Positions 5,009 through 45,885 of a stretch of DNA of 64,000 nt are shown in pieces (the first letter of the stretch is position 1; each line of letters starts with the position of its first letter). The DNA is taken from the NCBI GenBank assembly GCA_017615595.1, contig JAFZZT010000002.1, positions 9,199-73,198 on the forward strand. Direction: 5' to 3'. The translations under genes were made by a program, and so were the position numbers. The notes under the pieces are model-generated. The model was not told the origin of the DNA. It saw nothing but the letters and a program-made list of their open reading frames with translations, and searched no databases. The DNA is from Bacteroidales bacterium. Its GTDB lineage: Bacteria > Bacteroidota > Bacteroidia > Bacteroidales > WCHB1-69.

Positions 5009-5104
5009 AGTATAACTGTTCTTGTATGTTTAACTTAAATACTTCAAATCTTCTGTTTTTTCGCATGCGTAACCATTTTCAACGGTTGCATGAAAACAGC
5101 GCGG

Positions 5105-23796: not shown

Positions 23797-24843
23797 ATGA
23801 AAAGCTACAACATCGCATATAAATCAGAAAAAGGAAGGAAGAAAGAGCATTACGAGCGCAATGGGGACTATTGTGCCTATTTGGAAACCGACTCTTGCGT
23901 GATCGTGGCGCTCGCCGACGGTGTCGGCCGTTGCTTAAATGACGCGGAAGCCTCAGAGACCGCCTGCAGAGTGTTCATTGAAAAATGTCGGGACCACCTG
24001 GAGCGGCATCTTCTGGACGAAGACACTCTGCGGAGATTTTGCGAAGAGATCGACCCCGTATTGAGTGCCAAAAGGCTGATGAGCTGTTTCAGTGCTGTCG
24101 CATGGCAACCCAAGGAAAACAGCGCCATCTGGATTCATGTCGGCGACACGCGCATCTACCATTACAGTTTCGGAAAAGGGCTGCGGCAGATCACCACTGA
24201 CGACCATGGGAAACCGGTCATCCAGAGAGTCAATGGGAAGGTGCACACCGACCACGGGTCCGTGATCACCGCCACCCCCATCAGCAGCGCAATCGGAGAT
24301 ACCGGACTATGTTTCCACACTGGGAAAATCGACTTTGCGCCGGGCGAATGCTTGGTCCTATGTTCTGATGGCATGTACGGCTCCGCCGGTTTTGCCCTGG
24401 ACATGGAAACGGTGATCGGGAGCGACAATCTCCCCGTGGCGACGAGCAGAATCCCCCACACCGATGACGATGACGCTTCCGTCCTGATTTTGAGACGCAC
24501 AGACGGCTACGGGCGAAAGAGCTCCCTCCAATCCTTGACTGCCGAGATCAACGGCGTGGAGAAACATCTCCCCCGGCACATTTTGCTCCGCGAGATAAGG
24601 ACCAGCATGTCCCAAGGCATCACGCAAGAAGGTAGTGAGGAGGCGCTGGCCACATTCATCAAATTATGCAGCGAGCGACACCTCCACATAGCATACGAAG
24701 CCGCCACGGGCATCCTCGAGACAGCCAGAAAGCGCTACTACGACACACCCTCCAGCGCCCCGCACAAAAAAGATATTGAGCGAATGGTCATCGCATTACA
24801 GAACTATGTGGCGGAAGTGAGAAGGTTTGGGGGATCAAAATAA
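23797..24843 (+). CDS. PP2C-family (PPM) Ser/Thr phosphatase with C-terminal helical extension
   Basis: VIVALADGVG...IWIHVGDTRIYHY...LVLCSDGMY...DDDASVLIL are the PPM metal-binding Asp motifs. Confidence 0.7.
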   Translation: MKSYNIAYKSEKGRKKEHYERNGDYCAYLETDSCVIVALADGVGRCLNDAEASETACRVFIEKCRDHLERHLLDEDTLRRFCEEIDPVLSAKRLMSCFSAVAWQPKENSAIWIHVGDTRIYHYSFGKGLRQITTDDHGKPVIQRVNGKVHTDHGSVITATPISSAIGDTGLCFHTGKIDFAPGECLVLCSDGMYGSAGFALDMETVIGSDNLPVATSRIPHTDDDDASVLILRRTDGYGRKSSLQSLTAEINGVEKHLPRHILLREIRTSMSQGITQEGSEEALATFIKLCSERHLHIAYEAATGILETARKRYYDTPSSAPHKKDIERMVIALQNYVAEVRRFGGSK

Positions 24844-30867: not shown

Positions 30868-31032
30868 CAAAAAGTGTTTTTTCTGCGACTATGATACAAA
30901 ATTTTTCAACTACCTGTTTGTCAAATCATTATTTTGTTTTTGATAATTTCGGACAGACCCTATCTTAACAAGTTAACAAAGTTGCATAAATGAGTTGAAT
31001 TTAGGAACATAAATGTCAAACAATCTTGAAAA

Positions 31033-31487
31033 GTCTTCATCCTTGTTTTTGTGGAATTTTTGAGCAAGACGAACGACATGTCTGGTTTCAAAATAATTCT
31101 TTAACTTTTCTCTTGGTAGAAAAGTTACAAAAGATCAAGCCGACATGAATGCCGCGTGCGCGGGACGGAACTCGCGGCGCGGGGTTCCCCCCGCCACGAC
31201 GCTCGTGGAGTCTTTGCAGTGTAAAAACAAACAAACAACTAACCGTCTTAATCCTTGTTTTTGTGGAATTTTTGTGCAATCCGAACGCCGCCGTGTATGC
31301 ACGGATGGCTGAGGCGCAGCCAAAAATCAGCGCAGCTAAGATGCTCGTGGAGATCGGAGTACCAACCTGGCAAGTGGTCCGCGAGGGTTGGTCTTAATCC
31401 TTGTTTTTGTGGAAGATGCTCGTGGAGTATCGAGGCTTTAAACAATTGGTTTTCAGATAAATAGTCTTAATCCTTGTTTTTGTGGAA
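31033..31487. CRISPR. Interrupted/degenerate CRISPR-like array (37-nt repeat GTCTTAATCCTTGTTTTTGTGGAA|GATGCTCGTGGAG); no cas genes in window
   Basis: The 24-nt part A occurs at 31033 (1 mismatch), 31245, 31391 and 31464. The 13-nt part B occurs at 31198 (1 mismatch), 31340 and 31415. A+B is contiguous only at 31391-31427. The B-to-next-A distances are 34, 38 and 36 nt of unrelated sequence, which is spacer-like. The reverse complement ends ...GGATTAAGAC, resembling the ATTGAAAC-type handle. Confidence 0.45.
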
Positions 31488-31600
31488 CGCACTGAGTTTT
31501 TCAAGCATTTATTAACCTTTCAACAACTTGTCAAAGAACCTAATTCATAGAGTCCCATCCCTGTTGCCCACTCGCTCAAGAATGGAGCAAACTTCTTAGT

Positions 31601-32275
31601 ACATGACAAATTTTCAAGTGTCTTCAAGTATTTGGTTAGCAACAGTTAAGAAGTCGAAAATCGGGATGTTGTATTCATTCCTTCCCCTGGTGAGAAACTC
31701 GGTAACGATGTCCAGACCGTAGCGGAAGGTACTTTTGGACTTCCTGCCGTGTTTGAGGATGCGGATGGGGTTGAACTTATGGTGCACAAGTTCGATCCTC
31801 TCCCTCGTGTTGGAGGTGCTTTCTTGGGCAGCATGCTGAACAGCAGCGGGTAGGCCACACCGTCGTACACCACGGCGAGCATGAAGATGTTGATGTCGGT
31901 GCTGCCGAACCGCCAGTTGGTCCTGTCGATGGCCCGGCAGAGCGGGCCTTTCACCGGCAGCAGGCGGAATATGACGCGGGCGACAAGGTCCCTGTCGAGG
32001 TCGAATTCGGCGAAAAACCGCTGGATTCTCAGCAAACAGGACGCAAACTTCACGGACGAGTCAAAAACGGTCGACAGGAGGCTGAAGCACACCGTTTTAG
32101 CCTTGCACAGGGCCGCGATAAACAGCGATATGAGCTTGATGTGTGCCAGATTGATGTTTTTTCTCAAAAAAAGCTCAACGTGTCGGATAATTCATTATTT
32201 TTGCGGTCGTGATTGATTTTCATAGCAGCAGGATTGTGGTGGTTGTTTTTCTAAATTGCTGAAAATCAATCACTT
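31601..32275 (-). mobile_element. Deletion derivative of an IS4-family-like insertion sequence (left copy)
   Basis: It contains the degraded transposase ORF 31646-32167 and shares three sequence blocks in the same order and orientation with 39482-39745: acatgaca..ttttcaagtgtct.caagtattt.gtt.gcaa.agtta.g; gaggatgcggat.gg.ttgaactta..gtgcac.agttcg; gctcaacgtgtcgga. The outer boundary near 32275 is tentative. Confidence 0.6.
31646..32167 (-). pseudogene. IS4-like DDE transposase pseudogene (frameshift plus internal deletion)
   Basis: The N-terminal part ...DRTNWRFGSTDINIFMLAVVYDGVAYPLLFSMLPKK is transposase-like. After a frameshift, another frame reads STSNTRERIELVHHKFNPIRILKHGRKSKSTFRYGLD, joining N-terminal and extreme C-terminal segments. 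The catalytic DDE core is missing. Confidence 0.6.
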
Positions 32276-32395
32276 TATCAAGAACAAAACAAAAAAGCTA
32301 CCAACGAAATTTGTTGATAACTATATAAATATAAACAAGTTAGACTAAAATTTCATTTTTTTTGTCATATGCTAAAAAACAAACTCTAAAACCTC

Positions 32396-34705
32396 ATGAG
32401 ATTAGCTAGAATTTGCCGTGATTTTCATGTTGGAATGGAAACAATTGTTGATTTTCTTAGAAAACACAATGTCCAAGTTGAGACTAGTCCGAATGCAATA
32501 ATAGATGATAGTCATTATGCTCTTATTCAAAGCGCATTTGGTAGTAATGTAAGTAAGAATATGGACGATTCTAAAAAGGCAACTAAAAAATCGCGATTGA
32601 CAAATAATGAATTGAACCCATTGAGTTGGGTTAATGTAAACGCAGACGTTTCGTCTATAGCTACAGAGCCACAAAGGGGGAGGGAGATTTCTTATAGCTC
32701 ACTATTAGATCAAGATGGGAATCCCGTTTTCCTCTTAGAGAAAGATATGATAGGAAGCGGTGGAGAAGCTCAGGTTTTTAAATATAGGAAGAATTATGCT
32801 GCTAAGATATTTAGAAAATTCGACGAGGAACGAGAAGCAAAGCTCAAAATACTACTTGAAAAGCAACTAGATAAAGCTTTCTGTTTGCCAAAAAGACTGC
32901 TATACGATAAAGAGGGGCACATTGTTGGATACCTAATGCCATTTATTAAAGGGAACACTCTTGGTGAATCTATTTTTCAGCCGATGGAGTTCAAACATCT
33001 GTTCCCACGATGGACTAGAGTGGAACTTACCCAATTGGCTTTGATATGTTTAAAAGCTATTGACAATCTTCATCAAAACGGTATTCTTATAGGCGATTTA
33101 AATGCCTCAAACATTATCGTTAAAAGTCCTACTGATGTTTCTTTCATTGATGTAGACAGCTATCAAATAGACAAATATATGTGCAAAGTTGGTACTCGGT
33201 CTGCTTTTACCTCTCCACGTTTACAAGGAATGGACTTTCAAAAAGTACCAAGATTGTTTGAAGACGATTATTTTGCCACTACGACTTTGTTGTTTATGAT
33301 ATTTCTTCTTGGCAAACCTCCATATCGGAACGAAGGTAATAATCTTAGTGAGAATATCAGACTTAAGAATTTCACTTTCCCTTTTGAAGAAGATGACCAG
33401 GCATTTGTCGAGGCTCCTGCAGGAATGTGGGAAAACATCTGGAACGCTCTTCCCTATGAACTGCGTAGAACCTTTTATCAAGCATTTAAATTTGGAAGCG
33501 TGATATCTCCCTCTGAATGGATTACTCTTCTAGAACGATATTTGCAGGATCTTGTGAATAACAATTACTCAAGAGAAATTTTTCCCAAAGGTAAGCAGTT
33601 GATTAAGCGTTCTGTAAATATGAACAGAAAAGACATCACTGACAATGAGCCTGCGTTACGTAACGCTTTAACGATAATAGATTCGAAAGGAAATGGTAAA
33701 ATTGGCGTTCTTGAATTGTCCACTAAAGCAGTTAAACTACTTGTTGGGATAGATGAAGAAGCTATTCGAAATGCACGTACTTTTGATTTTGATAATTTTT
33801 GGAGAAAAACCGAAAAAACAAATACGGGAAGAGGTCTTGATAAAAAGAACAAGATGGATATGTCGTTTTTCTCTATAAATGTTATGCCTTCCATTATTCG
33901 TAGATTGTCCGAAGCCGAAGAACTTGGAGTTTGCAGATTGTATACTGTAGCAACTGCTGCGTATCGAAATGCGGATAACAGAACTGAAATCATTGAATAC
34001 ATTAGGGAAAAGACGGGAATTAATGTAAAAATTCTAAAGAAAAGCGAAGAAGCTGCTGCAACTATTATGGCTTTCCAGTTCAGCACAAAATATAAAGAGA
34101 GTCTTCAACATTCATCCTCCGTCCTTATGATTGACCAAGGAGGCGGAAGTACAGAAATGTCTTTATACAAAGACATGCATTTGGTCGGAAGTTATAGTAT
34201 TAATTTAGGCACTGAAATTTTACGTAATTATTTATTTCAGCATAATGCAGGTAATATAAATCTCCATCAAGCATTAACAGACACAGACAGACTTATTGTT
34301 GAACGACTTAAGACTTTTTACAAAAGCGATGTTGGCATCTGGCTTCAAGAGCATCAAGAGGGGACTTATTGTGTTGCTGTCGGTACAGCAATAACAAAAG
34401 CAACTGGGAAATCTTCCAATGCGAAACAACATGATAGCGTTATGACAGTACAAAAAATCGATTCTATAATTGACACGATACACAGCCAGCTCATTGATAA
34501 ATACCCAGATGTCGAGAGTCTTTTCAACGATGTAGACAGCCAAAGAAAAGGACACAAAGATTATGTGGATGCCAAACTTACGATGAGATTAGGCCTAAAA
34601 ATGTTTCAACTTATAATGATGCATTATAACATCCCCTCTGTTACGGTAAGCGGGACAGGACTTTGGTATGGGATTTACTTTCAAGAGTTATTGGGGTTAT
34701 CTTAA
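32396..34705 (+). CDS. Ser/Thr-kinase-like domain fused to a Ppx/GppA-type (ASKHA) phosphatase domain, with small N-terminal IF2_N-like module
   Basis: Kinase motifs: G-loop IGSGGEAQVF, AAKIF Lys, catalytic loop ILIGDLNASNIIV, and FIDVDSYQ in place of DFG. ASKHA motifs: GVLELSTKAVKLLVG and VLMIDQGGGSTEMSLY (the DxGGGSxE phosphate-2 motif). The gene is AT-rich. Confidence 0.7.
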   Translation: MRLARICRDFHVGMETIVDFLRKHNVQVETSPNAIIDDSHYALIQSAFGSNVSKNMDDSKKATKKSRLTNNELNPLSWVNVNADVSSIATEPQRGREISYSSLLDQDGNPVFLLEKDMIGSGGEAQVFKYRKNYAAKIFRKFDEEREAKLKILLEKQLDKAFCLPKRLLYDKEGHIVGYLMPFIKGNTLGESIFQPMEFKHLFPRWTRVELTQLALICLKAIDNLHQNGILIGDLNASNIIVKSPTDVSFIDVDSYQIDKYMCKVGTRSAFTSPRLQGMDFQKVPRLFEDDYFATTTLLFMIFLLGKPPYRNEGNNLSENIRLKNFTFPFEEDDQAFVEAPAGMWENIWNALPYELRRTFYQAFKFGSVISPSEWITLLERYLQDLVNNNYSREIFPKGKQLIKRSVNMNRKDITDNEPALRNALTIIDSKGNGKIGVLELSTKAVKLLVGIDEEAIRNARTFDFDNFWRKTEKTNTGRGLDKKNKMDMSFFSINVMPSIIRRLSEAEELGVCRLYTVATAAYRNADNRTEIIEYIREKTGINVKILKKSEEAAATIMAFQFSTKYKESLQHSSSVLMIDQGGGSTEMSLYKDMHLVGSYSINLGTEILRNYLFQHNAGNINLHQALTDTDRLIVERLKTFYKSDVGIWLQEHQEGTYCVAVGTAITKATGKSSNAKQHDSVMTVQKIDSIIDTIHSQLIDKYPDVESLFNDVDSQRKGHKDYVDAKLTMRLGLKMFQLIMMHYNIPSVTVSGTGLWYGIYFQELLGLS

Positions 34706-34743
34706 AGAATAGAATAAACAATAAAATAAAAAAACCAATAATT

Positions 34744-35916
34744 ATGTCACTCAAAAAATTACCTTCAATGATTGCTTCTGAGAGGTTTTCTCAGATAATT
34801 TCGATTACAAGTTCTGATTTGTCCCTATTTGATAAGCTCACTAAAGAACCTGATCGTGATAATCTAAATGCAACAAGTAGTATAAGGAGCACCTTATTTG
34901 GACTAGTATTAGATGTTTTGAAGAATTCTGATGATTATCAGAAAGGAGCAAAACCTCGAGATTTACTGATGTATGTAATAGATAATGCCCCATTCCAATT
35001 AGGAGAGACTCTTTATAATGATATACAAACAGTGTGGAATACTTTGAATACCATCAAAAGGAGCCATCAAGATGTGTCTCCAGAGGATTATATTCATATA
35101 ATAAAGATTGTATCTGAATTCATTGCCGTTTTGTCGGGCCTTCCAATACCTTCTGAGTTAAACGACTATATTTCAGGAGCAAAACCCATAGAAACCGCGA
35201 AAGAGAAAGAAGAGAAAATAGATATAGATACTGATGTTACAGAGGATGATCTGGAGGGTAATCCTACAACTAGAGTTCCTGTCGTTTTGTGCTTAGACGT
35301 AAGTGCCTCCATGGGGATAAAAGACAAAAATGATGTTTCTAAAATGGATTTACTTAATACAGCTGTGCAAGAGTTTTTCCGTTCTGTAACCGAAGACAAG
35401 ATAGCAAAGTGGGCCGCTGAAATATGTATCGTGACATTTGGTAGCAAAGCAATAAAACTAGTTGATTTCAATTATGCAAACAAGCAAAAGGAAGCGTTTA
35501 ATGCTTTAAAGCTAGTTGCTAAGGGCAATACCGCCATGGGTGAAGCGGTCAAATTATCGCTATCCATACTTGATCAGAGAAAATTAAAATACAGAAAGTA
35601 CGACATTGATTATTGGCAGCCATGGTTGGTATTAATGACGGATGGACAGGCCACCGATGACATTGACGAGGCAGCCGCCGAATGCAGAAAACATGTGGAG
35701 GAGGGGAAACTTGTTGTGTTCCCAATTGCATTGGGAAAAGGTGCTAATCTTGAAGACTTGAGAGCTTTTTCCCCTAAGCGAGACCCTCTTCAACTAAACC
35801 AATACAAACTTTCTGAGTTTTTCAGTTGGCTTAGCCAGAGTGTTAGGACAACATCCCAGTCGACTCCTGGTGCTGAAGTTAAACTTCCAGATATTTCAAC
35901 ATGGGCAGTATTATAA
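34744..35916 (+). CDS. vWA domain protein, TerY/YegL-like, with about 190-aa N-terminal helical extension
   Basis: MIDAS VPVVLCLDVSASMG, GNTAMGEAV, WLVLMTDGQATDD, and the C-terminal EFFSWLSQSVRTTSQSTPG tail typical of TerY/YegL-type vWA proteins. Confidence 0.75.
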   Translation: MSLKKLPSMIASERFSQIISITSSDLSLFDKLTKEPDRDNLNATSSIRSTLFGLVLDVLKNSDDYQKGAKPRDLLMYVIDNAPFQLGETLYNDIQTVWNTLNTIKRSHQDVSPEDYIHIIKIVSEFIAVLSGLPIPSELNDYISGAKPIETAKEKEEKIDIDTDVTEDDLEGNPTTRVPVVLCLDVSASMGIKDKNDVSKMDLLNTAVQEFFRSVTEDKIAKWAAEICIVTFGSKAIKLVDFNYANKQKEAFNALKLVAKGNTAMGEAVKLSLSILDQRKLKYRKYDIDYWQPWLVLMTDGQATDDIDEAAAECRKHVEEGKLVVFPIALGKGANLEDLRAFSPKRDPLQLNQYKLSEFFSWLSQSVRTTSQSTPGAEVKLPDISTWAVL

Positions 35917-36836
35917 TGGAAAAAAAACTATTAATACCTCTACCTAGCGCAAATCAATATTATGATTTGCTTTTGCAGAACGAAAAAACCAAAGGTACCA
36001 ACGAACAAAAAATGTTAGTACTTAGGCGAAGGTTTGATCGCATATTACGTGACATTTGGGGAGGGCGTTTCCCAGCTTCGCAAAGTTTCTATAAAGATAG
36101 CATGGAGGCCATTAAAAGTGAATTAGGGGTATCCGATACAGATTGGAAAGAATATGGAAGAATGATGCACGCTTTTAATTACTTGATGCATCGTGATGTT
36201 GAAATTACCAAAAAGAGATATTTGCTGAGTCTTCAAAGAATGGCAAAATTTGTTAGTTTATTGACAAAAGTTGAGATCCCATTGGAACTATGTAGTATTA
36301 TCGAGAAAAAGAAAGTAATTGCGACAAAAGGGAAGATTCCTGTATTTTGCTGCATTTCGAGTGCTTCTATTATTGAAAAAGAGAATCGAGACCAGTTTAA
36401 TAACGCTGCATTAAAGTTCCGCAACGAACTGCTTTCGGATAGCCGCATCAAAGACAGAATAAGATTTACCTTTTTGGTAACGACCAATGAAGGTTTTGTT
36501 GTGCGAGATATGTCTGATAGACCTGTAGGCAACCCTACCCCAACGAAAACACCAAGAGAGCACGCTTTATTATTTGCAGCGCAAGAATTGTCAAACCAAA
36601 ATGATGGGATGATGATACTCCTCTACGGAGGCAAGAAGTTGCAATTGTCAGATAATATTGTAAGTACAATAAAACAGCTGAATTCTTCCATTCAAGTATA
36701 TCCTATATCACTGGATCAAGAGAATTTGACATTTGAAGGCTTCCCATTTGAAGGTCAATTCTATCAGATGATACCAGGATGTTATGAAGAGTTTTTTTAC
36801 TGGTTATACGACACTCTTGTTTTACTATATCAATAA
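35916..36836 (+). CDS. Degenerate vWA-like protein (no intact MIDAS) with N-terminal helical region
   Basis: TAATG overlap with the upstream stop. IPVFCCISSASIIEKENRDQFNNAALKFRNEL...FTFLVTTNEGF...MMILLYGGKK follows the vWA strand/helix pattern, but DxSxS is replaced by ISSAS. Confidence 0.45.
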   Translation: MEKKLLIPLPSANQYYDLLLQNEKTKGTNEQKMLVLRRRFDRILRDIWGGRFPASQSFYKDSMEAIKSELGVSDTDWKEYGRMMHAFNYLMHRDVEITKKRYLLSLQRMAKFVSLLTKVEIPLELCSIIEKKKVIATKGKIPVFCCISSASIIEKENRDQFNNAALKFRNELLSDSRIKDRIRFTFLVTTNEGFVVRDMSDRPVGNPTPTKTPREHALLFAAQELSNQNDGMMILLYGGKKLQLSDNIVSTIKQLNSSIQVYPISLDQENLTFEGFPFEGQFYQMIPGCYEEFFYWLYDTLVLLYQ

Positions 36837-36841
36837 AAAAT

Positions 36842-37591
36842 ATGGGTAACTGGAAAATTATATCACATACAATGATTGGAACCTCACATCTTGAGCAAGG
36901 CAAAGGATGTGAAGATGTCATTAAAGTTATCACAACTGAAGACACTGCGGCCATAGCCTTGGCAGATGGAGCAGGTTCTTTCTCGAAAGCGTTTGAGGGC
37001 GCAACAATAGCAACTGAGAAATGTTCAAAATGGTTGCAGAAAAATTTTGACTGGGCATATAATGCAAATACATCAGACATTAAACATAAGTTAATAAATG
37101 TAATTAGAAGAAGTCTAAGAATTCAAGCCCAAAAGGAAAAGACGAAGTTTATGGAATATAGTTCGACACTCCTATTTGTAGCAGTAAACAATAATAGATA
37201 TATAGCAGGGCATGTAGGAGATGGAGTTATTGGCGTTATCACGACAGATGAGGAGAGCGTTGTCCTTTCCGAACCTGAGCGTGGTGAGTTTGCTAATAAC
37301 ACTTATTTTACAACTTCTTCTCAGATATCTAAACATTTTAGATTGCATCGAGGAACTATCACCCATATAAGTTCTTTTTTCTTAATGAGTGACGGCTCGG
37401 CTGATTGCTTATATAATCAAAAGGACAAAACATTCGCTCCTGCAGTTAATAAGTTTGCTATTTCTTTAGCAAAAGCTTCTTACGAAGAAATCGCACAAGT
37501 AAACAGTGCATTGACAAATGTCATGGAACGGTTTTTTAGTTCTAGGACTAACGATGATTGTAGTTTTATTATGTTACAATGGACTAAGTAG
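36842..37591 (+). CDS. PP2C-family phosphatase (PP2C_2 / YegK-like)
   Basis: GTSHLEQGKGCEDVIKV...AIALADGAGS...AGHVGDGVIGVI...FFLMSDGSADCL...NDDCSFIML. Confidence 0.75.
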   Translation: MGNWKIISHTMIGTSHLEQGKGCEDVIKVITTEDTAAIALADGAGSFSKAFEGATIATEKCSKWLQKNFDWAYNANTSDIKHKLINVIRRSLRIQAQKEKTKFMEYSSTLLFVAVNNNRYIAGHVGDGVIGVITTDEESVVLSEPERGEFANNTYFTTSSQISKHFRLHRGTITHISSFFLMSDGSADCLYNQKDKTFAPAVNKFAISLAKASYEEIAQVNSALTNVMERFFSSRTNDDCSFIMLQWTK

Positions 37592-37605
37592 TATAAAAAT
37601 ATATT

Positions 37606-39480
37606 ATGGATAAAAACCAATTTATAGGATATGCACACAAAGCATATGAAGATGTTTACAATAACTCTGAAGATTTTATTGTGAGAGAAGCCATTTCAAG
37701 GTATTCTGATAGTGAAGATGTGACTGATTATGTCGAGTCATATATGAAAATTTTCAAAGAAGGATGGGTTAATTATGTGGCTTTTAGAGGTGCTCTAAAA
37801 ACACACCTTGATGATAACGATAATTTGGCTTATTATGACCTGGACGAACTGCTCGCTGATGATTTCCAAATAGCTCAAATAACCAACGACAAAATAGGAA
37901 CTACATACAAATATCTTCGTCCGAAAAAAGGGCATGAGGGAGATGATATTCCGTCTGAACCAATTCAAGTGAAAACTTTCCCGGAACTAAGTGAACAGGA
38001 GAAAAAGAGAATTGTAAATGAAATTAGAAAATCGGCAAGTTCATTCGATGGTCATTGGATTTCCATGGTTGATTTAGGCGCATCTTTAAAGACAGCGCAA
38101 ATTGATTATAAGACTATGGGGTTTCCAAAACTACGAATTTTACTCGATCAATTATCTGATTATATTGAGTTACGCGTTGAATCTCCTGTAAAAATATATG
38201 TGCATGTCATTGGTGATGACGCAACTGTTTCATTAGGTGAAAAAACAGTTGTTAATTCTATCTCATCAGATGTTGAAAAATGGGTTGTTGATGCCATCAA
38301 ATTTCTTGTTAATGACGGGAAAACATATGGTGAAGGATGGGTAAACTCTGTTTTATTAGCACCCGTAATTAAAAATGCAGGAGTAGATTATAAAGCATTA
38401 GGATTCGAAAAATTCAAGCTTTTTCTTGAATCTTTTTCTTTTTTGCAACTGAACCAGATATCTCAAACGGAATTGCATATTAGGATTAATCCCAATCCTA
38501 AGATTGTATTTCCTCCTAAAGAAAATGTAAGTAAATCTGAAAATTTATCGCCCTATCAGAGGATTGTTAGATACGCTTATTTCCCTTCCAAAGATAAAGA
38601 GACAAACGGTTTTACATCAATGCTTCAAGAGTTAGAAGCAAAAGCAAAGAAAGAAACTTGGGAATATGGTAATCAGAAAATTCTACAAAACTATTTGTTA
38701 TACACATTCGAACGAATACAATATGAAGATTCCCGGATAAAAAGTGTGAAAGAAGAGCCTAAAAGGAAATTGCGTGAAGGCTCAGAGTATGCCGTTTTTA
38801 ATACGGGTTTAGTTAATAGTTTCTTTTCCCCTATTTATGGGCTATTTCGTCGCAATCCGCAAAAGGGAAAACAGAAATGGCTGTTTAGTGGTTTTCATGT
38901 TGAGAGCGAGAAAGCTATCAGCAACGCTAAAAAAGAAGAGAATTGGGATGATTTGCCAAAGGCGGCAAGGTTTTATGAGACACCTGATGATTTGATTTTT
39001 GATGTTGAGTCGAAAATTGACGCAATCAATTGGGAACATATTATTATTGATAATGTGGATAGGATTCCATTTAAATATATAGAAATGTATAAGCCGTTAG
39101 GTTTAGATTTGGAAAAAGAGCCCAATGAGCCTATGATTTATTATCAGAATCTTAGGTATGCTATTCGTAACGACCAATTTACATACAGAAAACTTGTAGA
39201 TTTGTTCCGCAACGCAATGGATAGAGCTGTACTTCATGCAACTTGGAATTTCCATTATGCATTGCCGATGTACTATCCACGATACAGAAAGGTTAGTATG
39301 TTATTGCCTTTAGTTTTGGAAGACAATCGAGATAGTATTGTGGAATTAGCATTGGTATTAGATCGTGATAATAAGCACAAATCGTATACCGCAACAACAA
39401 TTATGACCTTGGAACAAATATATTGCAATATCCGTTTAATTTCCCAACCGGATGAAGATACTTATTGGCTACACTCTTAG
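37606..39480 (+). CDS. Protein with two OST-HTH/LOTUS-like domains and a DUF3825-like C-terminal region
   Basis: FDGHWISMVDLGASLKTAQIDYKTMGFPKLRILLDQLSDYIEL and GEGWVNSVLLAPVIKNAGVDYKALGFEKFKLFLESFSFLQL fit the OST-HTH pattern (DGW..l..lG..l....d.k.yGf.Kl..ll). The DUF3825 assignment for the C-terminal ~300 aa is from memory of the Pfam OST-HTH association, not verified. Confidence 0.55.
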   Translation: MDKNQFIGYAHKAYEDVYNNSEDFIVREAISRYSDSEDVTDYVESYMKIFKEGWVNYVAFRGALKTHLDDNDNLAYYDLDELLADDFQIAQITNDKIGTTYKYLRPKKGHEGDDIPSEPIQVKTFPELSEQEKKRIVNEIRKSASSFDGHWISMVDLGASLKTAQIDYKTMGFPKLRILLDQLSDYIELRVESPVKIYVHVIGDDATVSLGEKTVVNSISSDVEKWVVDAIKFLVNDGKTYGEGWVNSVLLAPVIKNAGVDYKALGFEKFKLFLESFSFLQLNQISQTELHIRINPNPKIVFPPKENVSKSENLSPYQRIVRYAYFPSKDKETNGFTSMLQELEAKAKKETWEYGNQKILQNYLLYTFERIQYEDSRIKSVKEEPKRKLREGSEYAVFNTGLVNSFFSPIYGLFRRNPQKGKQKWLFSGFHVESEKAISNAKKEENWDDLPKAARFYETPDDLIFDVESKIDAINWEHIIIDNVDRIPFKYIEMYKPLGLDLEKEPNEPMIYYQNLRYAIRNDQFTYRKLVDLFRNAMDRAVLHATWNFHYALPMYYPRYRKVSMLLPLVLEDNRDSIVELALVLDRDNKHKSYTATTIMTLEQIYCNIRLISQPDEDTYWLHS

Positions 39481-39481
39481 C

Positions 39482-39808
39482 ACATGACATTTTTTTCAAG
39501 TGTCTGCAAGTATTTAGTTTGCAATAGTTAGGTAGTGTTTCATCCAGTGTGTCTGGGTTGGGTTTCGTGTCTGAGGATGCGGATAGGTTTGAACTTACAG
39601 TGCACGAGTTCGCCGATGTTGTAGCACCAGACGAAGGCCTCCATCACAAGCAACAGGAGTTCAGCAATCCTCTTCAAGTCAGTGAGATGATCAAGATATT
39701 GATGTTTTTTTACGAAGGTGCTCAACGTGTCGGAACATCTAATGTATAGCTTCTCATAAATTCTTCAGGCACATGCTGCAGTTGTTTCACATTGAAAGTA
39801 TTGTCGGC
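39482..39808 (-). mobile_element. Short deletion derivative of the same IS4-like element (right copy), MITE-like
   Basis: It has the same three blocks as the left copy. The residual ORF 39540-39725 reads ...HLTDLKRIAELLLLVMEAFVWCYNIGELVHCKFKPIRILRH (transposase C-terminus). Candidate terminal inverted repeats are acatgacatttttttcaagtg (39482) and cacattgaaagtattgtc (about 39789). Confidence 0.5.
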
Positions 39809-39951
39809 ACCTACCAAAATGCGGGAGCGATTTAGCTGTGGACAGCCCAAATGAGGGGGATTCAATTTTTTGACTTCCACAAGCAGCTGCTTTGATTTTC
39901 GAGAAAAAATTTTTCAATCAAATTAATGTTGGATAGTATTGAAAAAAAATG

Positions 39952-39959
39952 TATTTTTG
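39952..39959 (+). promoter_or_regulatory. Bacteroidetes -7 box TATTTTTG for the Rhs gene
   Basis: 57 nt upstream of the ATG at 40016. It lies inside the over-extended track ORF that starts at 39926. Confidence 0.5.
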
Positions 39960-40015
39960 CAGCACCATATTTTCAGTTCTTGTTCAAAGGACTTCGCAAG
40001 TTCTGGAAGTATCGC

Positions 40016-43000
40016 ATGAAAACAATATTAATAAGAAGTCCCCTATCATGTATGAAAAACAAATTACTATTACTCTTTTTATCAGTACTATTGCTTAGCA
40101 GCATAGTCGCATCGGGTCAGACATATCCATATGTATCCAACCCTCCCGAGGGCTCTTACACCACATGCGGATCCGGCACTCGAACAGACGTTGCCTTCAC
40201 CAGCGGCTGCACGTTTACGACCCCCACCGTGTCATACGACTGTTCCAACGTGAAGGTTGGCTATTGGGGCTATGACGAAGCCAACAACAGGCATGTGTTC
40301 AGGATCAAAAAATGCAGCGGCTACTTCAACAACAACAGCTCCGGCCGAATCGTCATACGGACCACCTTGGACGAGATGCAGTGCACCAACTACCACATCT
40401 ACAACTCCACCACTCCATACGTGGAGGCCTACTTCGACGGGCAATTCTACGGCACATGCACCTTCCTGGCCTACCTGACCACCACCAACTACCAGGCCTA
40501 TGCCGGCAGCGTGACCGTGACGCTCCAGCACGGTGCCCCATTGGCATATACATCCCCAGCCTACAACATCACGGAAAACTCGGCGACGCTGAGGGGGGCT
40601 GTAACCCCAAACGGCTTGACAACCCACTATTATTTCGAGTACGGGACAACAAGCAGCTATGGCAGCTCCACCTCCACCTCCTCGCTCTCTGCCTCATACT
40701 CTGTCAACAATGTGACAAAGTCGATTTACGGCTTGAATCCGGGAACAACGTATCACTACCGCCTGGTCGCCTACAATTCTGACGGCACTGATTACGGGCA
40801 AGACCGGACATTCACCACCGCGCAGAACACAGACGCGCCTGTCGCCACCACCCTGGACGCCACAAACGTCACCGAGAACAGCGCCACCCTGCAGGGCTAC
40901 ATAAATCCAAACGGACTTTCAACCGACTACACGTTTCAATACGGACCGACAACCGACTATGGCTCCACGTCATCTCTCGGGACAGTATCCGGCTCAAGCT
41001 CCACAACAGCCGTGTCGAAAAACGTCACAGGCCTGTCGCCCAACACGACCTACCATTTCCGGCTGATAGCGGGGAACAGTCTCGGTACTGACCACGGGGC
41101 AGACAGGACTTTCACAACCTCGTCCGTCAACTGCACATGGACCGACTGCACCTCCGGGTCCTGCGGAAGCACCCAATACCTGACCGCCAGCCAGAAAATG
41201 GAGGCCGCGCAGTACCTGTGCCAGCACAACATCATCGACAACGGCACAGGTTCCTTCCCGCTGCGGCCTGACGACTATATCACACGCGCAGAACTGGCCA
41301 AGATCGCCTTCTTCGGCCTCTACGACGGCGAGCCCAACCAGCCGAGCCTGCTGGTGTCCGACTACATACCCAGCCCGTACACCGACCTTCAGGACCCCGG
41401 CTCGTTCTACTACCGCGCCGCCAAAGCCCTTCTGTACCTGCAGTACCATGACGACGCCACAGGCACCACCCCATTCGACAGGGACAGGGCCTATTTCGAC
41501 CCTAACGGCACAATCACCCGCAGACTGATGCTCAAGGTCTTGATGGAGACATTCGACCTTGAGCCTTACAACGGATCCTCCACCTATTCTCCTTTCTCAG
41601 ACTTCAGCGCAAACGATAGTTTTTGGCGATATGCAAAGGCAGCCTACGATCTGGGCATCACCAACGCCTCCCAATTCCGCCCCTACGACGACTGCACCCG
41701 CGCGGAGGCCTTCGTCTTCCTCTACCGCATCCTGACAAGCCCGAACATAACCATCCCGACACCCGCCTCCGCCGACTTCTTCATCCCCAACAACCTCAGC
41801 CCGAAAGCCCTGGCTGCCATCGGCGGCATCGAATACGGGAATTTCAAGTACTACTCGAAGGACTGTTTCAAGAACCCCGGCTGGATGGACATGGACTTCG
41901 GATTCTGCTACAACTCCTACCTCACCGAGATGCCCGCGGACTTCTACCCCGTCACCCCCCTGGGGGACAAGGCCTGGTCCCACACATACAACATCTACAT
42001 GAACGTCATCTCCGACGCCTATTCCGGACACGACTTCCTGCTCTTCCACCTTGGCGAAGGGGAAATCCTGATGTATGAAAAGAACGGAGGCTCCATCTCC
42101 AGTCTCTCGGAAGGAAACTACAACACCTTGTCGTCAAGCGGGACCGGCACCTACACCCTCACCGCCACCGACCAGACCGTGTTCACCTTCGAGAAACTGG
42201 TCAGCTCCACCCCTGTCTATTACCTGACTTCCATCCAGAACAGGTTCGGGGACGGAATCGAGATCAACTACCAGCCGAGCTCGGCCACAGGCTACCGCCG
42301 AATCTCCTCGGTGACAAGCGGAACCGGCGACGGCGTGCGGACCCTCCTTTTCCTGTACTCTTCCGGATCCGACAACATCATCAGGGTCGTGGATCCCCAG
42401 AACAGGGAGATCCAGTTCAGCTACACGGACGGCAGCCTCCACCAGTTCACCGACGCCAAGAACCAGACAACCACATACATCTACGGCACCCTCGAAACCG
42501 AGACCGGCCTGCTGAAGTCCGTCCGGATGCCGAGCGGCGACACCATCCACAACGACTACAGCCAGCGCAAGCTCACAAGCACCCGCACCAACTCCAACAC
42601 CGCCACCTCCATCCTGCAAAGCGTCAGCAACTCCAACAACGTCACCACCTACAACTCGACCGTCACCGAGCCCGTATCCTCCAGCACAAACCAGAACATC
42701 GTCACACACTACACCATGAACGACGTCGGCAGGGTGACAAGAGTCTATGACGACTGCAACGTGGACATGACCTACAATTACACCAACTCCACCCACAAGG
42801 CGCTGCCGTCAAGCATCGTCAACAACAAAACCGGCGTCTCCTCCTCATACTCCTACACGGACAAAGGGCTTGTACACCAGCGCATCACCTCCTCCTCCGG
42901 AATGTCGCAGGTGGAGACATGGGACTACAACAACCTCAACGACCTCACCCAGTACACTGACGCCAACAGCCATTCCACCCACTACACATACACATCGTCG

Positions 43001-45285: not shown

Positions 45286-45885
45286 ATGTCAGATAACCCG
45301 ACAACAATTCACATACCCAACACCTCCGGCCCAAAGGGATACAAGATCTTCAACTTGCTGGATGTCCGCCAAGCCATCTGCGACAGACTCCGAAAGGAAG
45401 GAAGATGCTCGGGGAAATATTACTCCTACATCTTCCATCTGCCAGACAATACCACCATCGAAGATTTTCCCATCTATCGGGACTACCTTTCTCAATTCTC
45501 CCTCACCCCCACACTCGAGGGAAAACACTTCCCGTCAGCCGACGACAGCCTCTCCGAAACAGATTACGATCTGCTCTTCAAGTTGATTTGCGGCTCGTTT
45601 TCCAGCTCATACGACCTGACATGCAACGAACAACAAAACACGCTGGAAATCACCCTACATGTGCAAACCGACAAGGGAACCATCTCTAAAAGAATCAGCG
45701 AACTGGAGAAATCCCAGATTCAAGATCTGTTTGTCATATTCCTGGACGAACAACTGTGGCTTGCATTTGTTCAACCGAAAGATGGACCCAGCCAGCATTA
45801 TCTTGCACGAAAAGAACAAAGACGCAAGATATTCGAGCAAAAGACACGAGCACTGGAGGACAGGAACTATCTGACAATCAACTAG
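45286..45885 (+). CDS. Hypothetical protein sharing a domain with the C-terminus of the downstream amidase
   Basis: IEDFPIYRDYLSQFSL...DYDLLFKLICGSFSSSYDL... aligns with LEDFSFYQDYLLQFDL...DWELLQRFLFGSFSSDYHF in 45988-47169. Confidence 0.55.
   Translation: MSDNPTTIHIPNTSGPKGYKIFNLLDVRQAICDRLRKEGRCSGKYYSYIFHLPDNTTIEDFPIYRDYLSQFSLTPTLEGKHFPSADDSLSETDYDLLFKLICGSFSSSYDLTCNEQQNTLEITLHVQTDKGTISKRISELEKSQIQDLFVIFLDEQLWLAFVQPKDGPSQHYLARKEQRRKIFEQKTRALEDRNYLTIN

What the first reader, a model, noticed from the sequence alone, without database searches (positions are those of the whole stretch)
32396..34705. Kinase-like domain covalently fused to a Ppx/GppA-type ASKHA domain
One 769-aa polypeptide carries kinase motifs (IGSGGEAQVF, AAKIF, GDLNASN, DVDS) followed by ASKHA phosphate-binding motifs (LELSTKAVKLLVG; IDQGGGSTEM). 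The first ASKHA motif is divergent: D is replaced by E and G by S/T. The domain may therefore be a sensor or a nucleotide binder rather than a hydrolase. A small N-terminal IF2_N-like module (RICRDFHVGMETIVDFLRKHNVQV) precedes both domains. A fusion of a protein kinase with a polyphosphate/(p)ppGpp-phosphatase fold is unusual, and it would couple phosphosignalling to alarmone or polyP status.
Basis: partly seen in the sequence, partly recalled or inferred. Interest (0 to 1): 0.6.

Follow-up and report, generated by a model that had tools for sequence, protein, structure and literature searches.

The report
Kinase–Ppx/GppA fusion in defence-like island
A real single protein joins a YegI-type Ser/Thr kinase to a divergent Ppx/GppA-type phosphatase-fold domain, and it heads a kinase–vWA–PP2C operon on a horizontally acquired island, so it is most likely the sensor-kinase of an undescribed variant of the TerY-P-type bacterial conflict systems rather than a housekeeping alarmone or polyphosphate enzyme.

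Summary
Window 32396-34705 (+) is one 769-aa ORF carrying every quoted motif. The C-terminal half scores as Ppx/GppA in Pfam (75.5 bits against a cut-off of 27). An AlphaFold model (pLDDT 86) superposes on solved PPX/GppA structures and on protein kinases. At least 57 clusters (50% identity) share the fusion, so it is not an assembly artefact.

The context changes the reading. The gene opens a five-gene operon: kinase-ASKHA, vWA with an intact MIDAS motif, a degenerate vWA paralogue, PP2C, and a LOTUS/DUF3825 protein. The operon sits on a 7.7-kb island of 36-37% GC (flanks about 53%), bracketed by IS4 remnants.

The kinase, vWA and PP2C are homologues of E. coli YegI, YegL and PphC. This is the "TerY-P" triad, some versions of which are anti-phage systems. 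Here a Ppx/GppA-like domain replaces the kinase's usual zinc-ribbon, OB or membrane tail.

The domain belongs to a distinct subfamily. Its phosphate-1 loop is ELSTKAVK and it ends in GLWYG, but the catalytic EEA and DQGGGSTE motifs are invariant. The same subfamily is also fused to MkoA-like helicases in DarT-like/Macro operons.

The ligand and the output are inferred, not shown. Novelty: new variant of a known kind.

The parts
32170..39925 (.). Low-GC island (36-37% GC against about 52-55% in the flanks) that carries the whole operon
   Evidence: Composition profiles. The flanking genes are ordinary chromosomal genes: ABC permeases, a rhamnosidase, an amidase, riboflavin kinase.
32396..34705 (+). 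Fusion gene, 769 aa: N-terminal helical module, linker, YegI-type kinase, ELSTK-type Ppx/GppA domain
   Evidence: It is identical to P0001, 'MAG: hypothetical protein J5741_00405 [Bacteroidales bacterium]'.
32396..32551 (+). aa 1-52: small beta-alpha-alpha-beta-alpha module, present only in the closest relatives (78-100% identity). IF2_N-like by eye only.
   Evidence: pLDDT about 90 with helices at 3-10, 14-23 and 38-52. No Pfam hit at E<=1. No BLAST or hhalign match to the IF2_N of the related kinase P0032.
32546..32683 (+). aa 51-96: low-confidence, probably disordered linker
   Evidence: pLDDT below 50 for residues 51-96. The region is absent from most homologues.
32693..33580 (+). aa 100-395: Ser/Thr kinase domain of the YegI family. 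G-loop at 119-124, K137, catalytic loop I232-GDLNASN-239, D252-V-D254-S255.
   Evidence: 26% identity over 290 aa to E. coli YegI, E 2e-21. Motif alignment to CaMK1G. Kinase fold. Conservation: K137 in 20/23, D234 in 22/23, N239 in 21/23, D252 in 20/23.
33596..33697 (+). aa 401-434: conserved leader (S-x-N-M-N-R-K/R-D-I/V ...) that precedes the ASKHA domain in kinase fusions and in several stand-alone relatives
   Evidence: Alignments A1 and A2. The representative-library matches to helicase fusions also start at the first residues of the query, which begins inside this leader.
33698..34702 (+). aa 435-769: two-lobed Ppx/GppA-type ASKHA domain of the 'ELSTK' subfamily. Phosphate-1 loop E440-L-S-T-K444 (33713-33727), E551-E552-A (34046-34054), I579-DQGGGSTE-587 (34130-34156), G755-LWYG-759.
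   Evidence: Pfam 75.5 bits. Foldseek to 1t6d, 8jgu, 6pc0 and others. Profile alignment to solved PPX/GppA. Invariant residues.
34744..35916 (+). vWA protein with an intact MIDAS motif (D212-x-S214-x-S216 in ORF numbering, 35296-35310) and an uncharacterised N-terminal region of about 170 aa. The longest ORF starts at TTG 34663 and overlaps the fusion gene. ATG 34744 gives 390 aa, which fits the 383-387 aa of homologues.
   Evidence: Pfam VWA 3.1e-11. 36% identity over the whole of E. coli YegL, E 9e-32. Homologue lengths.
35901..36836 (+). 311-aa degenerate vWA paralogue. The MIDAS Asp is replaced (ISSAS) and the later MTDG becomes LYGG.
   Evidence: Weak BLASTP to the neighbouring vWA protein (E 0.005, collinear segments). 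It is picked up by the vWA HMM built from the loci. It is conserved at the same position in L006, L086, L087 and L088. No Pfam family.
36842..37591 (+). PP2C-type phosphatase, 249 aa. D42 aligns to the catalytic D46 of E. coli PphC.
   Evidence: Pfam PP2C_2 1e-40. BLASTP to PphC 1e-19 over the full length. PADLOC PDC-M21C 4e-6.
37606..39480 (+). OST-HTH/LOTUS + DUF3825 protein, 624 aa. It is the fifth gene of the operon in the Bacteroidales clade only. The fold of its C-terminal domain is unassigned.
   Evidence: Pfam DUF3825 6.8e-52 and OST-HTH 5e-8. It holds the same position in L086-L088. AF2 pLDDT 78. Only LOTUS/winged-helix matches were found.
31590..32190 (-). IS4-family transposase remnant at the left edge of the island
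   Evidence: NCBIfam transpos_IS4_2 3.4e-16, covering only profile positions 5-94 of 340.
39480..39740 (-). A second, shorter and internally deleted copy of the same IS4 remnant, in direct orientation, at the right edge of the island
   Evidence: Collinear shared words and an alignment to 31560-32230.

Best explanation
The gene encodes the sensor-kinase of a TerY-P / YegI-PphC-YegL-type phospho-switch module that arrived by horizontal transfer.

Shown:
- One protein carries a YegI-family Ser/Thr kinase domain with all catalytic residues.
- Its C-terminal half is a Ppx/GppA-fold domain of a distinct, strongly conserved 'ELSTK' subfamily.
- It is co-transcribed in order with a MIDAS-competent vWA protein, a degenerate vWA paralogue, a PP2C phosphatase and a LOTUS/DUF3825 protein.
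- The kinase-vWA-PP2C core is conserved from Bacteroidota to Clostridia, Fusobacteriota, Planctomycetota and Proteobacteria.
- The same ASKHA subfamily is also fused to MkoA-like RNA helicases in operons with DarT-like and Macro proteins.

Inferred by analogy with E. coli, where PphC dephosphorylates autophosphorylated YegI:
- PP2C holds the kinase in the unphosphorylated state.
- The C-terminal ASKHA domain sits where other triad kinases carry a zinc ribbon, an OB fold or membrane helices. It binds, and probably turns over, a polyphosphorylated ligand. Candidates are a nucleotide 5'-polyphosphate such as (p)ppGpp or (p)ppApp, an NTP, a 5'-triphosphate RNA end, or polyP.
- Lobe closure on that ligand shifts the kinase/phosphatase balance.
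- The kinase then phosphorylates itself (S255 aligns to the essential autophosphorylated Ser of YegI) and its vWA and LOTUS/DUF3825 partners. The outcome is a stress or anti-invader response such as growth arrest.
For: Domain identity.

Homology of all three core proteins to E. coli YegI, YegL and PphC. YegI is an active kinase despite its VGDxxQxS and DSD motifs, and PphC dephosphorylates it (bioRxiv 10.1101/819920 and 10.1101/303594).

Definition of the TerY-P triad, its kinase tails (ZnR, OB) and its defence activity: eLife PMC11090510 and Kaur 2020, PMC7159879.

Operon conservation in 12 distinct loci.

Mobile or defence context:
- low-GC island with IS4 remnants;
- WYL regulators next to the operon in L001/L013, L086/87 and L088;
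- Schlafen/AlbA, SMC-like ATPase and MmeI-type methylase neighbours in L001;
- integrases, TraG and ParE in L005;
- BrxL directly upstream in L025.

Purifying selection on the catalytic residues of both domains.

The ASKHA module is portable. It occurs in helicase/DarT-like/Macro systems, and that helicase scores 5.7e-99 against MkoA. It is almost absent from phages and plasmids.
Against: No experiment bears on this family. PADLOC does not call a known system here. The ligand is unknown. The phosphate-1 loop lacks the canonical Asp and Gly, so the chemistry may differ or be lost.

Invariant catalytic residues fit an enzyme or effector at least as well as a pure sensor.

Several kinase-ASKHA genes (L014, L031, L039) have no vWA or PP2C within 7 kb.

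The window copy lacks the WYL regulator seen in relatives.

Outside the Bacteroidales clade no effector gene is evident. The fold of DUF3825 could not be assigned.
Confidence: 0.6

Rival explanations
1. The ASKHA domain is the effector, not the sensor. When the kinase switch fires, the domain hydrolyses an essential or regulatory polyphosphate (NTPs, (p)ppGpp, polyP or 5'-triphosphate RNA ends). The cell is then starved or rewired, as in an abortive-infection-like response.
For: All the residues used for catalysis in solved PPX/GppA enzymes, other than those of the phosphate-1 loop, are invariant. Triads outside the Bacteroidales clade carry no other obvious effector gene. The domain always sits at the C-terminus, as effector domains often do.
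Against: In the helicase systems separate toxin-like domains are present (DarT-like, HD) together with a Macro antidote, so an extra effector is not needed there. The position corresponds to the ZnR/OB tails of other triad kinases, which are read as ligand- or nucleic-acid-binding modules (PMC11090510). No substrate is known.
Confidence: 0.22
2. One reading: a housekeeping signalling protein that couples Ser/Thr phosphorylation to the stringent response or to polyphosphate status of the cell.
For: The closest solved relatives are genuine PPX/GppA enzymes. E. coli keeps a yegI-pphC-yegL triad in its chromosome.
Against: The operon lies on a 36% GC island in a genome of about 53% GC, flanked by IS4 remnants. 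Its distribution is patchy and rare: 166 matching stretches, canonical Ppx included, in 185,579 species genomes. Neighbours are WYL, BREX, restriction-modification and integrative-element genes. NCBIfam equivalog cut-offs for PPX and GppA are missed by a wide margin (77 against 307 bits; 23.6 against 624 bits).
Confidence: 0.08
3. The ASKHA domain is a pseudoenzyme. It would act as a nucleotide-independent scaffold, oligomerisation module or partner-binding module, in the way Hsp70- or actin-like domains can.
For: The phosphate-1 loop has lost the canonical Asp and Gly, and GLREG is replaced by GLWYG. Some triads sit beside a separate Hsp70-family gene: yegD in E. coli and an 872-aa HSP70-like gene in L037. 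This suggests that ASKHA-fold partners are a recurring feature.
Against: E551, E552, D580, G582, G583, S585, R524 and N528 are invariant, and the new loop residues E440, T443 and K447 are invariant too. A dead site is not expected to look like this.
Confidence: 0.09
4. Artefact: two genes joined by a sequencing or assembly error.
For: None found.
Against: The reading frame is continuous. The same architecture recurs in dozens of independent assemblies at 32-100% identity. The single-chain model is confident.
Confidence: 0.01

Closest known systems
E. coli YegI (Ser/Thr kinase) - PphC/YegK (PP2C) - YegL (vWA) cluster, with the HSP70-family gene yegD next to it
   Same: All three core proteins are homologous: kinase 26% identity, E 2e-21; vWA 36% identity over the whole of YegL, E 9e-32; PP2C E 1e-19. 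The kinase motifs deviate in the same way (x-G-D-x-N-x-x-N/S catalytic loop; D-x-D-S in place of DFG). S255 aligns to the essential autophosphorylated Ser of YegI, and D42 of the PP2C aligns to PphC D46.
   Different: After the kinase domain YegI has a two-pass membrane region and a cytosolic tail, not an ASKHA domain (10.1101/819920). In E. coli the ASKHA-fold protein is a separate gene of the Hsp70 family, not a fused Ppx/GppA domain. E. coli has no second degenerate vWA gene and no LOTUS/DUF3825 gene. The biological role of the E. coli cluster is itself unknown.
TerY-P triad (Anantharaman, Iyer & Aravind 2012; Gao et al. 2020; described in the CoCoNuT paper PMC11090510 and in Kaur et al. 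2020 PMC7159879)
   Same: A co-operonic vWA protein, PP2C phosphatase and Ser/Thr kinase, where the kinase carries a variable C-terminal module. These triads are found in defence and mobile contexts, and OB-fold versions are reported to defend against phages. In Clostridium tanneri (L003) a kinase with a weak, sub-threshold zinc-ribbon match at its C-terminus and weak PIN_4 similarity at its N-terminus sits in the same operon as the kinase-ASKHA gene.
   Different: The C-terminal module here is a roughly 365-aa Ppx/GppA-type domain instead of a zinc ribbon or OB fold. There are no ter genes nearby. PADLOC v2 HMMs return no TerY-type hit. A duplicated, MIDAS-less vWA gene and a LOTUS/DUF3825 gene are added.
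Short two-domain PPX/GppA enzymes (Aquifex aeolicus 1T6C/1T6D/2J4R; also H. pylori 6PC0, P. gingivalis 7EPQ, D. radiodurans 8JGO)
   Same: The same two-lobed ASKHA fold (target-normalised TM 0.74-0.77). Shared motifs: the catalytic Glu, DQGGGSTE (identical to Aquifex), ATxAxRxAxN, and the His of the QH motif.
   Different: The phosphate-1 loop is ELSTKAVK, not DxGSNSxR. The C-terminal motif is GLWYG, not GLREG. There is an extra conserved N-terminal leader. The domain is fused to a kinase or a helicase. It lacks domains III and IV of the long PPX/GppA enzymes. Identity is only 15-18%. No activity data exist.
Mokosh type I MkoA (Ser/Thr kinase domain + Upf1-like RNA helicase; Millman et al. 2022, bioRxiv 10.1101/2022.05.11.491447)
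   Same: The two partner domains of the ELSTK ASKHA module, a kinase and an Upf1-like helicase, are the two domains of MkoA. The helicase-ASKHA fusion L008 scores 5.7e-99 against the MkoA HMM, and the window kinase scores 3e-5.
   Different: The window protein has no helicase, and the operon has no PLD nuclease (MkoB). The helicase-ASKHA proteins are paired with DarT-like/HD and Macro proteins instead.

Membership tests
Ppx/GppA phosphatase family (Pfam PF02541) | Profile HMM score at or above the curated gathering cut-off | tested here: met
   75.5 bits against a cut-off of 27, E 6.3e-21, aa 507-696.
Ppx/GppA phosphatase family (Pfam PF02541) | Two-lobed ASKHA fold that superposes on solved PPX/GppA structures | tested here: met
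   Foldseek gives 1t6d 2.6e-17 and 8jgu, 3cer, 3mdq, 7epq, 6pc0 with target-normalised TM 0.72-0.77. The model has pLDDT 86.
Ppx/GppA phosphatase family (Pfam PF02541) | Catalytic Glu (H. pylori E143) and the phosphate-2 motif DxGGGSxE | tested here: met
   E552 aligns to E143 of 6pc0, and IDQGGGSTE aligns to IDIGGGSTE. These residues are invariant in 23/23 homologues.
Ppx/GppA phosphatase family (Pfam PF02541) | Phosphate-1 loop DxGSNSxR | tested here: not met
   LELSTKAVK aligns to IDIGSNSVR, giving D->E, G->S, S->T, N->K, S->A and R->K. The variant loop is itself invariant in the subfamily.
Ppx/GppA phosphatase family (Pfam PF02541) | C-terminal GLREG motif | tested here: not met
   GLWYG aligns to GLREG of Aquifex and H. 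pylori. An intermediate clade has GLRYG.
Exopolyphosphatase / GppA equivalogs (NCBIfam TIGR03706, NF008260, NF008108) | Score above the curated cut-off used to name the enzyme | tested here: not met
   77.1 against 307 bits; 23.6 against 624; 17.1 against 864.
Exopolyphosphatase / GppA equivalogs (NCBIfam TIGR03706, NF008260, NF008108) | Hydrolysis of polyP or pppGpp | not testable with these tools
   Needs biochemistry.
Eukaryotic-like Ser/Thr protein kinase (Pfam PF00069) | Profile HMM score at or above the gathering cut-off | tested here: not met
   26.2 bits against 31.7, although E is 6.2e-6. The experimentally active YegI is equally deviant in its motifs.
Eukaryotic-like Ser/Thr protein kinase (Pfam PF00069) | Bilobal kinase fold with the ATP-binding Lys, catalytic Asp and Asn, and metal-binding Asp | tested here: met
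   Foldseek hits to EPHA8, B-Raf and PknB at about 4e-9, TM about 0.7. K137, D234, N239 and D252 align to the VAIK, HRD, N and DFG positions of CaMK1G. They are conserved in 20-22 of 23 homologues.
YegI-PphC-YegL / TerY-P triad | Kinase, vWA and PP2C genes co-directional in one operon, conserved across taxa | tested here: met
   The window operon and 11 further distinct loci in six phyla.
YegI-PphC-YegL / TerY-P triad | Sequence homology of each of the three proteins to the E. coli triad | tested here: met
   E 2e-21, 9e-32 and 1e-19.
YegI-PphC-YegL / TerY-P triad | Kinase fused at its C-terminus to a zinc ribbon (or an OB fold in the tested defence versions) | tested here: not met
   The C-terminus is a Ppx/GppA-type domain. 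The triad definition is taken from PMC11090510.
YegI-PphC-YegL / TerY-P triad | vWA protein with an intact MIDAS metal site | tested here: met
   D212-V-S214-A-S216 aligns to the DVSGS of YegL. The second vWA-like gene has lost it.
YegI-PphC-YegL / TerY-P triad | Linkage to tellurite-resistance (ter) genes | tested here: not met
   None of the neighbouring ORFs scanned against Pfam is a Ter protein.
YegI-PphC-YegL / TerY-P triad | Protection against phage | not testable with these tools
   Needs infection assays. PADLOC gives only weak PD-T4-6, MkoA and PDC-M21C hits.
IF2_N (Pfam PF04760) for aa 1-52 | Profile or pairwise similarity to IF2_N | tested here: not met
   No Pfam hit at E<=1. BLASTP and hhalign against the IF2_N of the related kinase P0032 give nothing. 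Only the predicted beta-alpha-alpha-beta-alpha layout and resemblance by eye remain.
Mokosh (MkoA/MkoB) | Upf1-like helicase plus a PLD nuclease | tested here: not met
   The window operon has neither. Only the kinase region gives a weak MkoA hit (3e-5).

The most novel reading that the evidence does not exclude
The 'ELSTK' Ppx/GppA-like domain is a previously unrecognised immune module that reads or destroys a polyphosphorylated nucleotide signal, for example (p)ppGpp, (p)ppApp or the 5'-triphosphate end of invader RNA. It would be shared as a plug-in between at least two unrelated kinds of conflict system: YegI-type kinase-vWA-PP2C switches, and MkoA-like helicase / DarT-like / Macro operons. 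That would link alarmone or RNA-end chemistry directly to bacterial immunity.
Probability: 0.3. Interest if true: 0.75.

Novelty: new variant of a known kind. Interest (0 to 1): 0.55.

Why it matters
The role of kinase-vWA-PP2C triads is still unknown, even for the copy in E. coli K-12. What their kinases sense is an open question. A version whose sensor position is filled by an enzyme fold with a well-understood ligand class (terminal phosphates of pppGpp, polyP or nucleotides) offers a concrete, testable handle on the input signal.

The same divergent domain also appears on Mokosh-like helicases paired with DarT-like and Macro proteins. This points to a portable module that no defence catalogue I could search describes.

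If the domain binds or hydrolyses an alarmone or 5'-triphosphate RNA, that would connect stringent-response chemistry to anti-invader signalling in gut Bacteroidales.

Tried and rejected
1. IF2_N identity of aa 1-52. Pfam on the first 100 aa found nothing at E<=1. BLASTP and hhalign against P0032, a related kinase with a bona fide IF2_N hit, were negative. The label stays unproven.

3. PADLOC as a test for TerY-P. Neither the window proteins nor the more canonical Clostridium triad returned any TerY-named model. The test is therefore uninformative rather than negative.

4. Plasmid and phage carriage. There was no tblastn hit for the ASKHA domain in PLSDB or INPHARED, and only 2 hits in 2.9 million IMG/VR contigs.

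5. Literature. No paper combined GppA with vWA/PP2C, DarT or defence islands, and none mentioned DUF3825. Anantharaman et al. 2012 was not available to read, so the TerY-P definition is taken second-hand from PMC11090510.

6. Stand-alone ELSTK genes. Several lie next to housekeeping genes such as aminotransferase and EPSP synthase, so not every member sits in an obvious system. Some 'stand-alone' entries may be truncated ORFs from short contigs.

7. Rfam and tRNA scans found nothing relevant near the island.


Full report
**1.

Window 32396-34705 (+) is a single ATG-to-stop ORF of 769 aa. The opposite strand is full of stops.

Pfam scores the C-terminal half as Ppx-GppA, well above its curated cut-off (75.5 against 27 bits, E 6.3e-21). 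It scores the middle as Pkinase with a significant E-value but below the cut-off (26.2 against 31.7 bits). NCBIfam agrees on the folds, but the protein falls far short of the equivalog cut-offs for exopolyphosphatase or GppA. PDB sequence searches return only PPX/GppA chains for the C-terminal half and protein kinases for the middle.

An AlphaFold2 model built on 23 homologues is confident (mean pLDDT 86, pTM 0.76; only aa 51-96 are disordered). Foldseek places 37 PPX/GppA chains on top (E 1e-17 to 1e-11, target-normalised TM up to 0.77). Protein kinases including PknB follow (about 4e-9, TM about 0.7).

The C-terminal half is a Ppx/GppA-type ASKHA domain. The fusion is not an assembly error either. 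The exact protein is in NCBI as a hypothetical protein of a Bacteroidales MAG. About 30 clusters at 90% identity share the architecture, as do 57 or more representatives at 50% identity.

**2. Anatomy of the protein**

- aa 1-52: a small, confidently folded beta-alpha-alpha-beta-alpha module found only in the closest relatives.
- aa 51-96: a low-confidence, probably disordered linker.
- aa ~100-395: the kinase domain.
- aa 401-434: a conserved leader (S-x-N-M-N-R-K/R-D-I/V).
- aa 435-769: the ASKHA domain.

The kinase aligns to CaMK1G as follows. GSGGEA falls on the glycine loop and K137 on the VAIK lysine. IGDLNASN falls on HRDLKPEN, and D252 on the DFG aspartate. These residues are kept in 20-22 of 23 homologues. 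A small sub-clade (P0021, P0024, P0028) has lost them.

In the ASKHA domain, a subfamily profile aligns LELSTKAVK to IDIGSNSVR of H. pylori PPX/GppA. E552 falls on the catalytic Glu (H. pylori E143), and IDQGGGSTE is the phosphate-2 motif, identical to that of Aquifex. E440, T443, K447, R524, N528, E551, E552, D580, G582, G583, S585 and H679 are invariant in 23 of 23 fusions. The ASKHA half is at least as conserved as the kinase half (mean pairwise identity 0.45 against 0.40).

This is the pattern of a remodelled but functional phosphate-binding site. It is not the pattern of a decayed one. Whether the site hydrolyses or only binds cannot be decided from sequence.

**3. Context**

The gene is the first of five tightly packed, co-directional genes:
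- a vWA protein with an intact MIDAS motif, whose real start is probably ATG 34744;
- a 311-aa protein that is a degenerate, MIDAS-less vWA paralogue;
- a PP2C_2 phosphatase;
- an OST-HTH(LOTUS)/DUF3825 protein.

The block from 32.2 to 39.9 kb has 36-37% GC in a window that otherwise runs at 50-57%. It is bracketed by two directly oriented, decayed copies of an IS4-family transposase fragment. The genes beyond it are ordinary Bacteroidales chromosome genes. The operon is a horizontally acquired island.

**4. What it belongs to**

The three core proteins are homologues of the E. coli K-12 cluster yegI-(yegJ)-pphC-yegL:
- kinase domain against YegI: 26% identity over 290 aa, E 2e-21;
- vWA C-terminal half against all of YegL: 36% identity, E 9e-32;
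- PP2C against PphC: full length, E 1e-19.

YegI has been shown to be an active Ser/Thr kinase despite a VGDxxQxS catalytic loop and a DSD motif in place of DFG. The Ser that follows DSD is essential (10.1101/819920). The window protein has IGDLNASN and D252-V-D254-S255 at the aligned positions. PphC dephosphorylates autophosphorylated YegI, and its D46N mutant is dead (10.1101/303594). D42 of the window PP2C aligns to D46.

This trio is the 'TerY-P' triad. The CoCoNuT paper describes it as a vWA protein, a PP2C and a kinase that ends in a zinc ribbon. It is found with restriction and DNA-processing systems. According to that paper, citing Gao et al. 2020, versions with an OB-fold tail act as stand-alone anti-phage systems (PMC11090510). 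Kaur et al. 2020 describe the same kinase(-ZnR)/PP2C/vWA theme.

In the present family the tail position is occupied by the Ppx/GppA-type domain. I found no description of that variant.

**5. Conservation of the system**

The order kinase-ASKHA -> vWA -> PP2C recurs at 37-81% identity. It is seen in Flavipsychrobacter, Clostridium tanneri, a Tara Oceans scaffold, Porphyromonadaceae, Paludibacter, Saprospiraceae, Cetobacterium and an alphaproteobacterium. Bacteroidales relatives at 58-81% identity keep all five genes, including the degenerate vWA and the DUF3825 protein.

The neighbourhoods are those of conflict systems:
- WYL(+WCX) regulators lie directly beside the operon in three lineages.
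- Schlafen/AlbA, SMC-like ATPase and MmeI-type methyltransferase genes are present in L001.
- Integrases, TraG/TrwB and ParE are present in L005.
- BrxL lies immediately upstream in L025.

In C. tanneri a second kinase sits between the fusion and the vWA gene. It has a weak, sub-threshold zinc-ribbon match at its C-terminus and weak PIN_4 similarity at its N-terminus. In Cetobacterium an 872-aa Hsp70-like gene precedes the operon, which echoes yegD next to yegI in E. coli.

A few kinase-ASKHA genes have no vWA or PP2C nearby (L014, L031, L039).

**6. The ASKHA subfamily is a portable module**

An exhaustive search of 1.84 billion representatives with the domain alone gave 77 clusters below 1e-30. 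The domain lies at the C-terminus of several protein types:
- kinase fusions of about 670 aa;
- proteins of 1280-1400 aa with S1 plus SF1 (AAA_11/AAA_12) helicase domains;
- proteins of 1030-1097 aa that follow a separate SF1 helicase gene.

It also occurs alone, at 330-400 aa.

All of these share ELST[KR]AVK, EEA, DQGGGS and GLWYG. A neighbouring clade with DIGT[KR]AVR and GLRYG looks intermediate towards the canonical DxGSNSxR and GLREG.

The helicase fusions (13 loci, mostly Bacteroidales) are followed by a 1500-2000-aa protein with DarT-like and HD domains, and then by a Macro-domain protein. Their helicase scores 5.7e-99 against the Mokosh MkoA model. Type I MkoA itself combines a Ser/Thr kinase domain with an Upf1-like helicase (Millman et al. 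preprint).

In a neighbour-joining tree, kinase-fused, stand-alone and other forms are interleaved, and the helicase-fused forms make one clade.

The domain is essentially absent from plasmid and phage collections. It is rare in genomes: 166 matching stretches, canonical Ppx included, among 185,579 species.

**7. How it most likely works**

Shown:
- the composition and order of the operon;
- homology to an experimentally validated kinase/phosphatase pair;
- preserved catalytic residues in the kinase, the PP2C, the vWA MIDAS site and the ASKHA core;
- island status and defence-type neighbours.

Inferred:
- The PP2C keeps the kinase dephosphorylated.
- The ASKHA domain occupies the variable sensor slot of triad kinases. 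It binds, and probably turns over, a ligand with a terminal polyphosphate: an alarmone-type nucleotide, an NTP, a 5'-triphosphate nucleic-acid end, or polyP.
- Closure of the lobes changes kinase activity or oligomerisation.
- The kinase then phosphorylates itself and its vWA and LOTUS/DUF3825 partners, producing a stress or anti-invader output.

The recurring RNA-binding partners hint at an RNA-linked signal, but this is speculation. They are S1, Upf1-like helicases, LOTUS, and PIN or IF2_N on related kinases.

I put 0.6 on the general statement: a TerY-P/YegI-type conflict module with a new sensor or enzyme tail. I put about 0.35 on the domain being primarily a sensor. The main rival, that it is the effector hydrolase, gets about 0.22. 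A housekeeping alarmone or polyP role gets about 0.08, a pseudoenzyme scaffold about 0.09, and an artefact about 0.01.

**8. Limits**

- There are no experiments on this family.
- PADLOC does not recognise a system here, and it gave no TerY-named hit even for the canonical-looking Clostridium triad.
- The primary TerY-P paper could not be read.
- The DUF3825 fold and the vWA N-terminal domain remain unassigned.
- Gene calls in the fetched loci are my own simple ORF calls.
- Some 'stand-alone' domain proteins may be fragments.

**9. Verdict**

The fusion is real, conserved and undescribed in the literature I could search. It is best filed as a new variant of a known kind of system: a kinase-vWA-PP2C triad whose kinase carries a divergent Ppx/GppA-type domain, on a mobile island. 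It is not a categorically new signalling principle. Interest is 0.55. It would be higher if the ELSTK domain proves to be a shared alarmone- or RNA-end-sensing module of bacterial immunity.

Noticed in passing
window 31029-31490: There are four copies of a 24-nt repeat, GTCTTAATCCTTGTTTTTGTGGAA (spacing 212, 146 and 73 nt), and three copies of GATGCTCGTGGAG. At 31391-31427 the two are contiguous (37 nt), followed by a 36-nt unique stretch and another copy. This looks like a decayed CRISPR-like mini-array. No cas genes were found among the ORFs scanned, and there was no Rfam hit.
   Followed up: partly
window 31590-32190 and 39480-39740: Two directly oriented, degenerate copies of an IS4-family transposase fragment bracket the low-GC island. 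The right copy has large internal deletions. This suggests IS-mediated capture or insertion of the island.
   Followed up: partly
L007-L012, L016, L019-L023, L033 (e.g. L008 6866-17807): A conserved three-gene system, mainly in Bacteroidales. It comprises an S1 + MkoA-like SF1 helicase + ELSTK Ppx/GppA-like fusion (about 1390 aa), a 1500-2000-aa protein with DarT-like ADP-ribosyltransferase and HD domains, and a Macro-domain protein of about 240-250 aa. It looks like an undescribed Mokosh/DarTG hybrid.
   Followed up: partly
L029 3823-11011 and L032 4077-11080: Another architecture: a 1296-aa SF1 helicase gene, followed by a 1030-1097-aa protein whose N-terminal part of about 680 aa has no Pfam match and whose C-terminus is the ELSTK domain.
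   Followed up: no
L042-L062 and L069 (e.g. L053, L054, L056): A related clade of 340-620-aa proteins from Saprospiraceae, Myxococcota and Deltaproteobacteria has phosphate-1 loop [FI]D[IL]GT[KR]A[VC]R and GLRYG. It is intermediate between canonical Ppx/GppA and the ELSTK subfamily. L048 carries one of these directly after a kinase-ASKHA/vWA/PP2C operon.
   Followed up: no
L037 5517-8135; L089 (E. coli) 3675-5027: An Hsp70-family (ASKHA-fold) gene sits beside the kinase/vWA/PP2C triad both in Cetobacterium (872 aa, with a weak, sub-threshold DUF3731 match at its C-terminus) and in E. coli (yegD). ASKHA-fold partners may be a recurring feature of these triads.
   Followed up: partly
window 33596-33640 (aa 401-415) and the aligned positions in A1 and A2: A short leader, S-x-N-M-N-R-[KR]-D-[IV], precedes the ASKHA domain in kinase fusions and in several stand-alone proteins. 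The representative-library matches to helicase fusions also begin at the first query residues, inside this leader. Its role is unknown.
   Followed up: no
window 39926-45022: A 1698-aa protein with RHS repeats, fn3 and SLH domains starts right after the island. It has high GC (0.56-0.58) and a strongly negative GC skew. It is probably a polymorphic toxin or surface protein. The 199-aa ORF that follows (45286-45885) has no Pfam match.
   Followed up: no
window 23797-24843: A second, unrelated PP2C_2-domain gene (348 aa) lies in the native-GC part of the window, next to ABC-transporter permease genes.
   Followed up: no
A1 members P0021, P0024, P0028 (810-817 aa) and P0022 (982 aa): A sub-clade of the fusion family has lost the kinase catalytic residues (R for K137, G for D252) and gained a C-terminal extension of about 150 aa. 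P0022 carries an extra N-terminal kinase-like domain. These are pseudokinase variants with an intact ASKHA domain.
   Followed up: no
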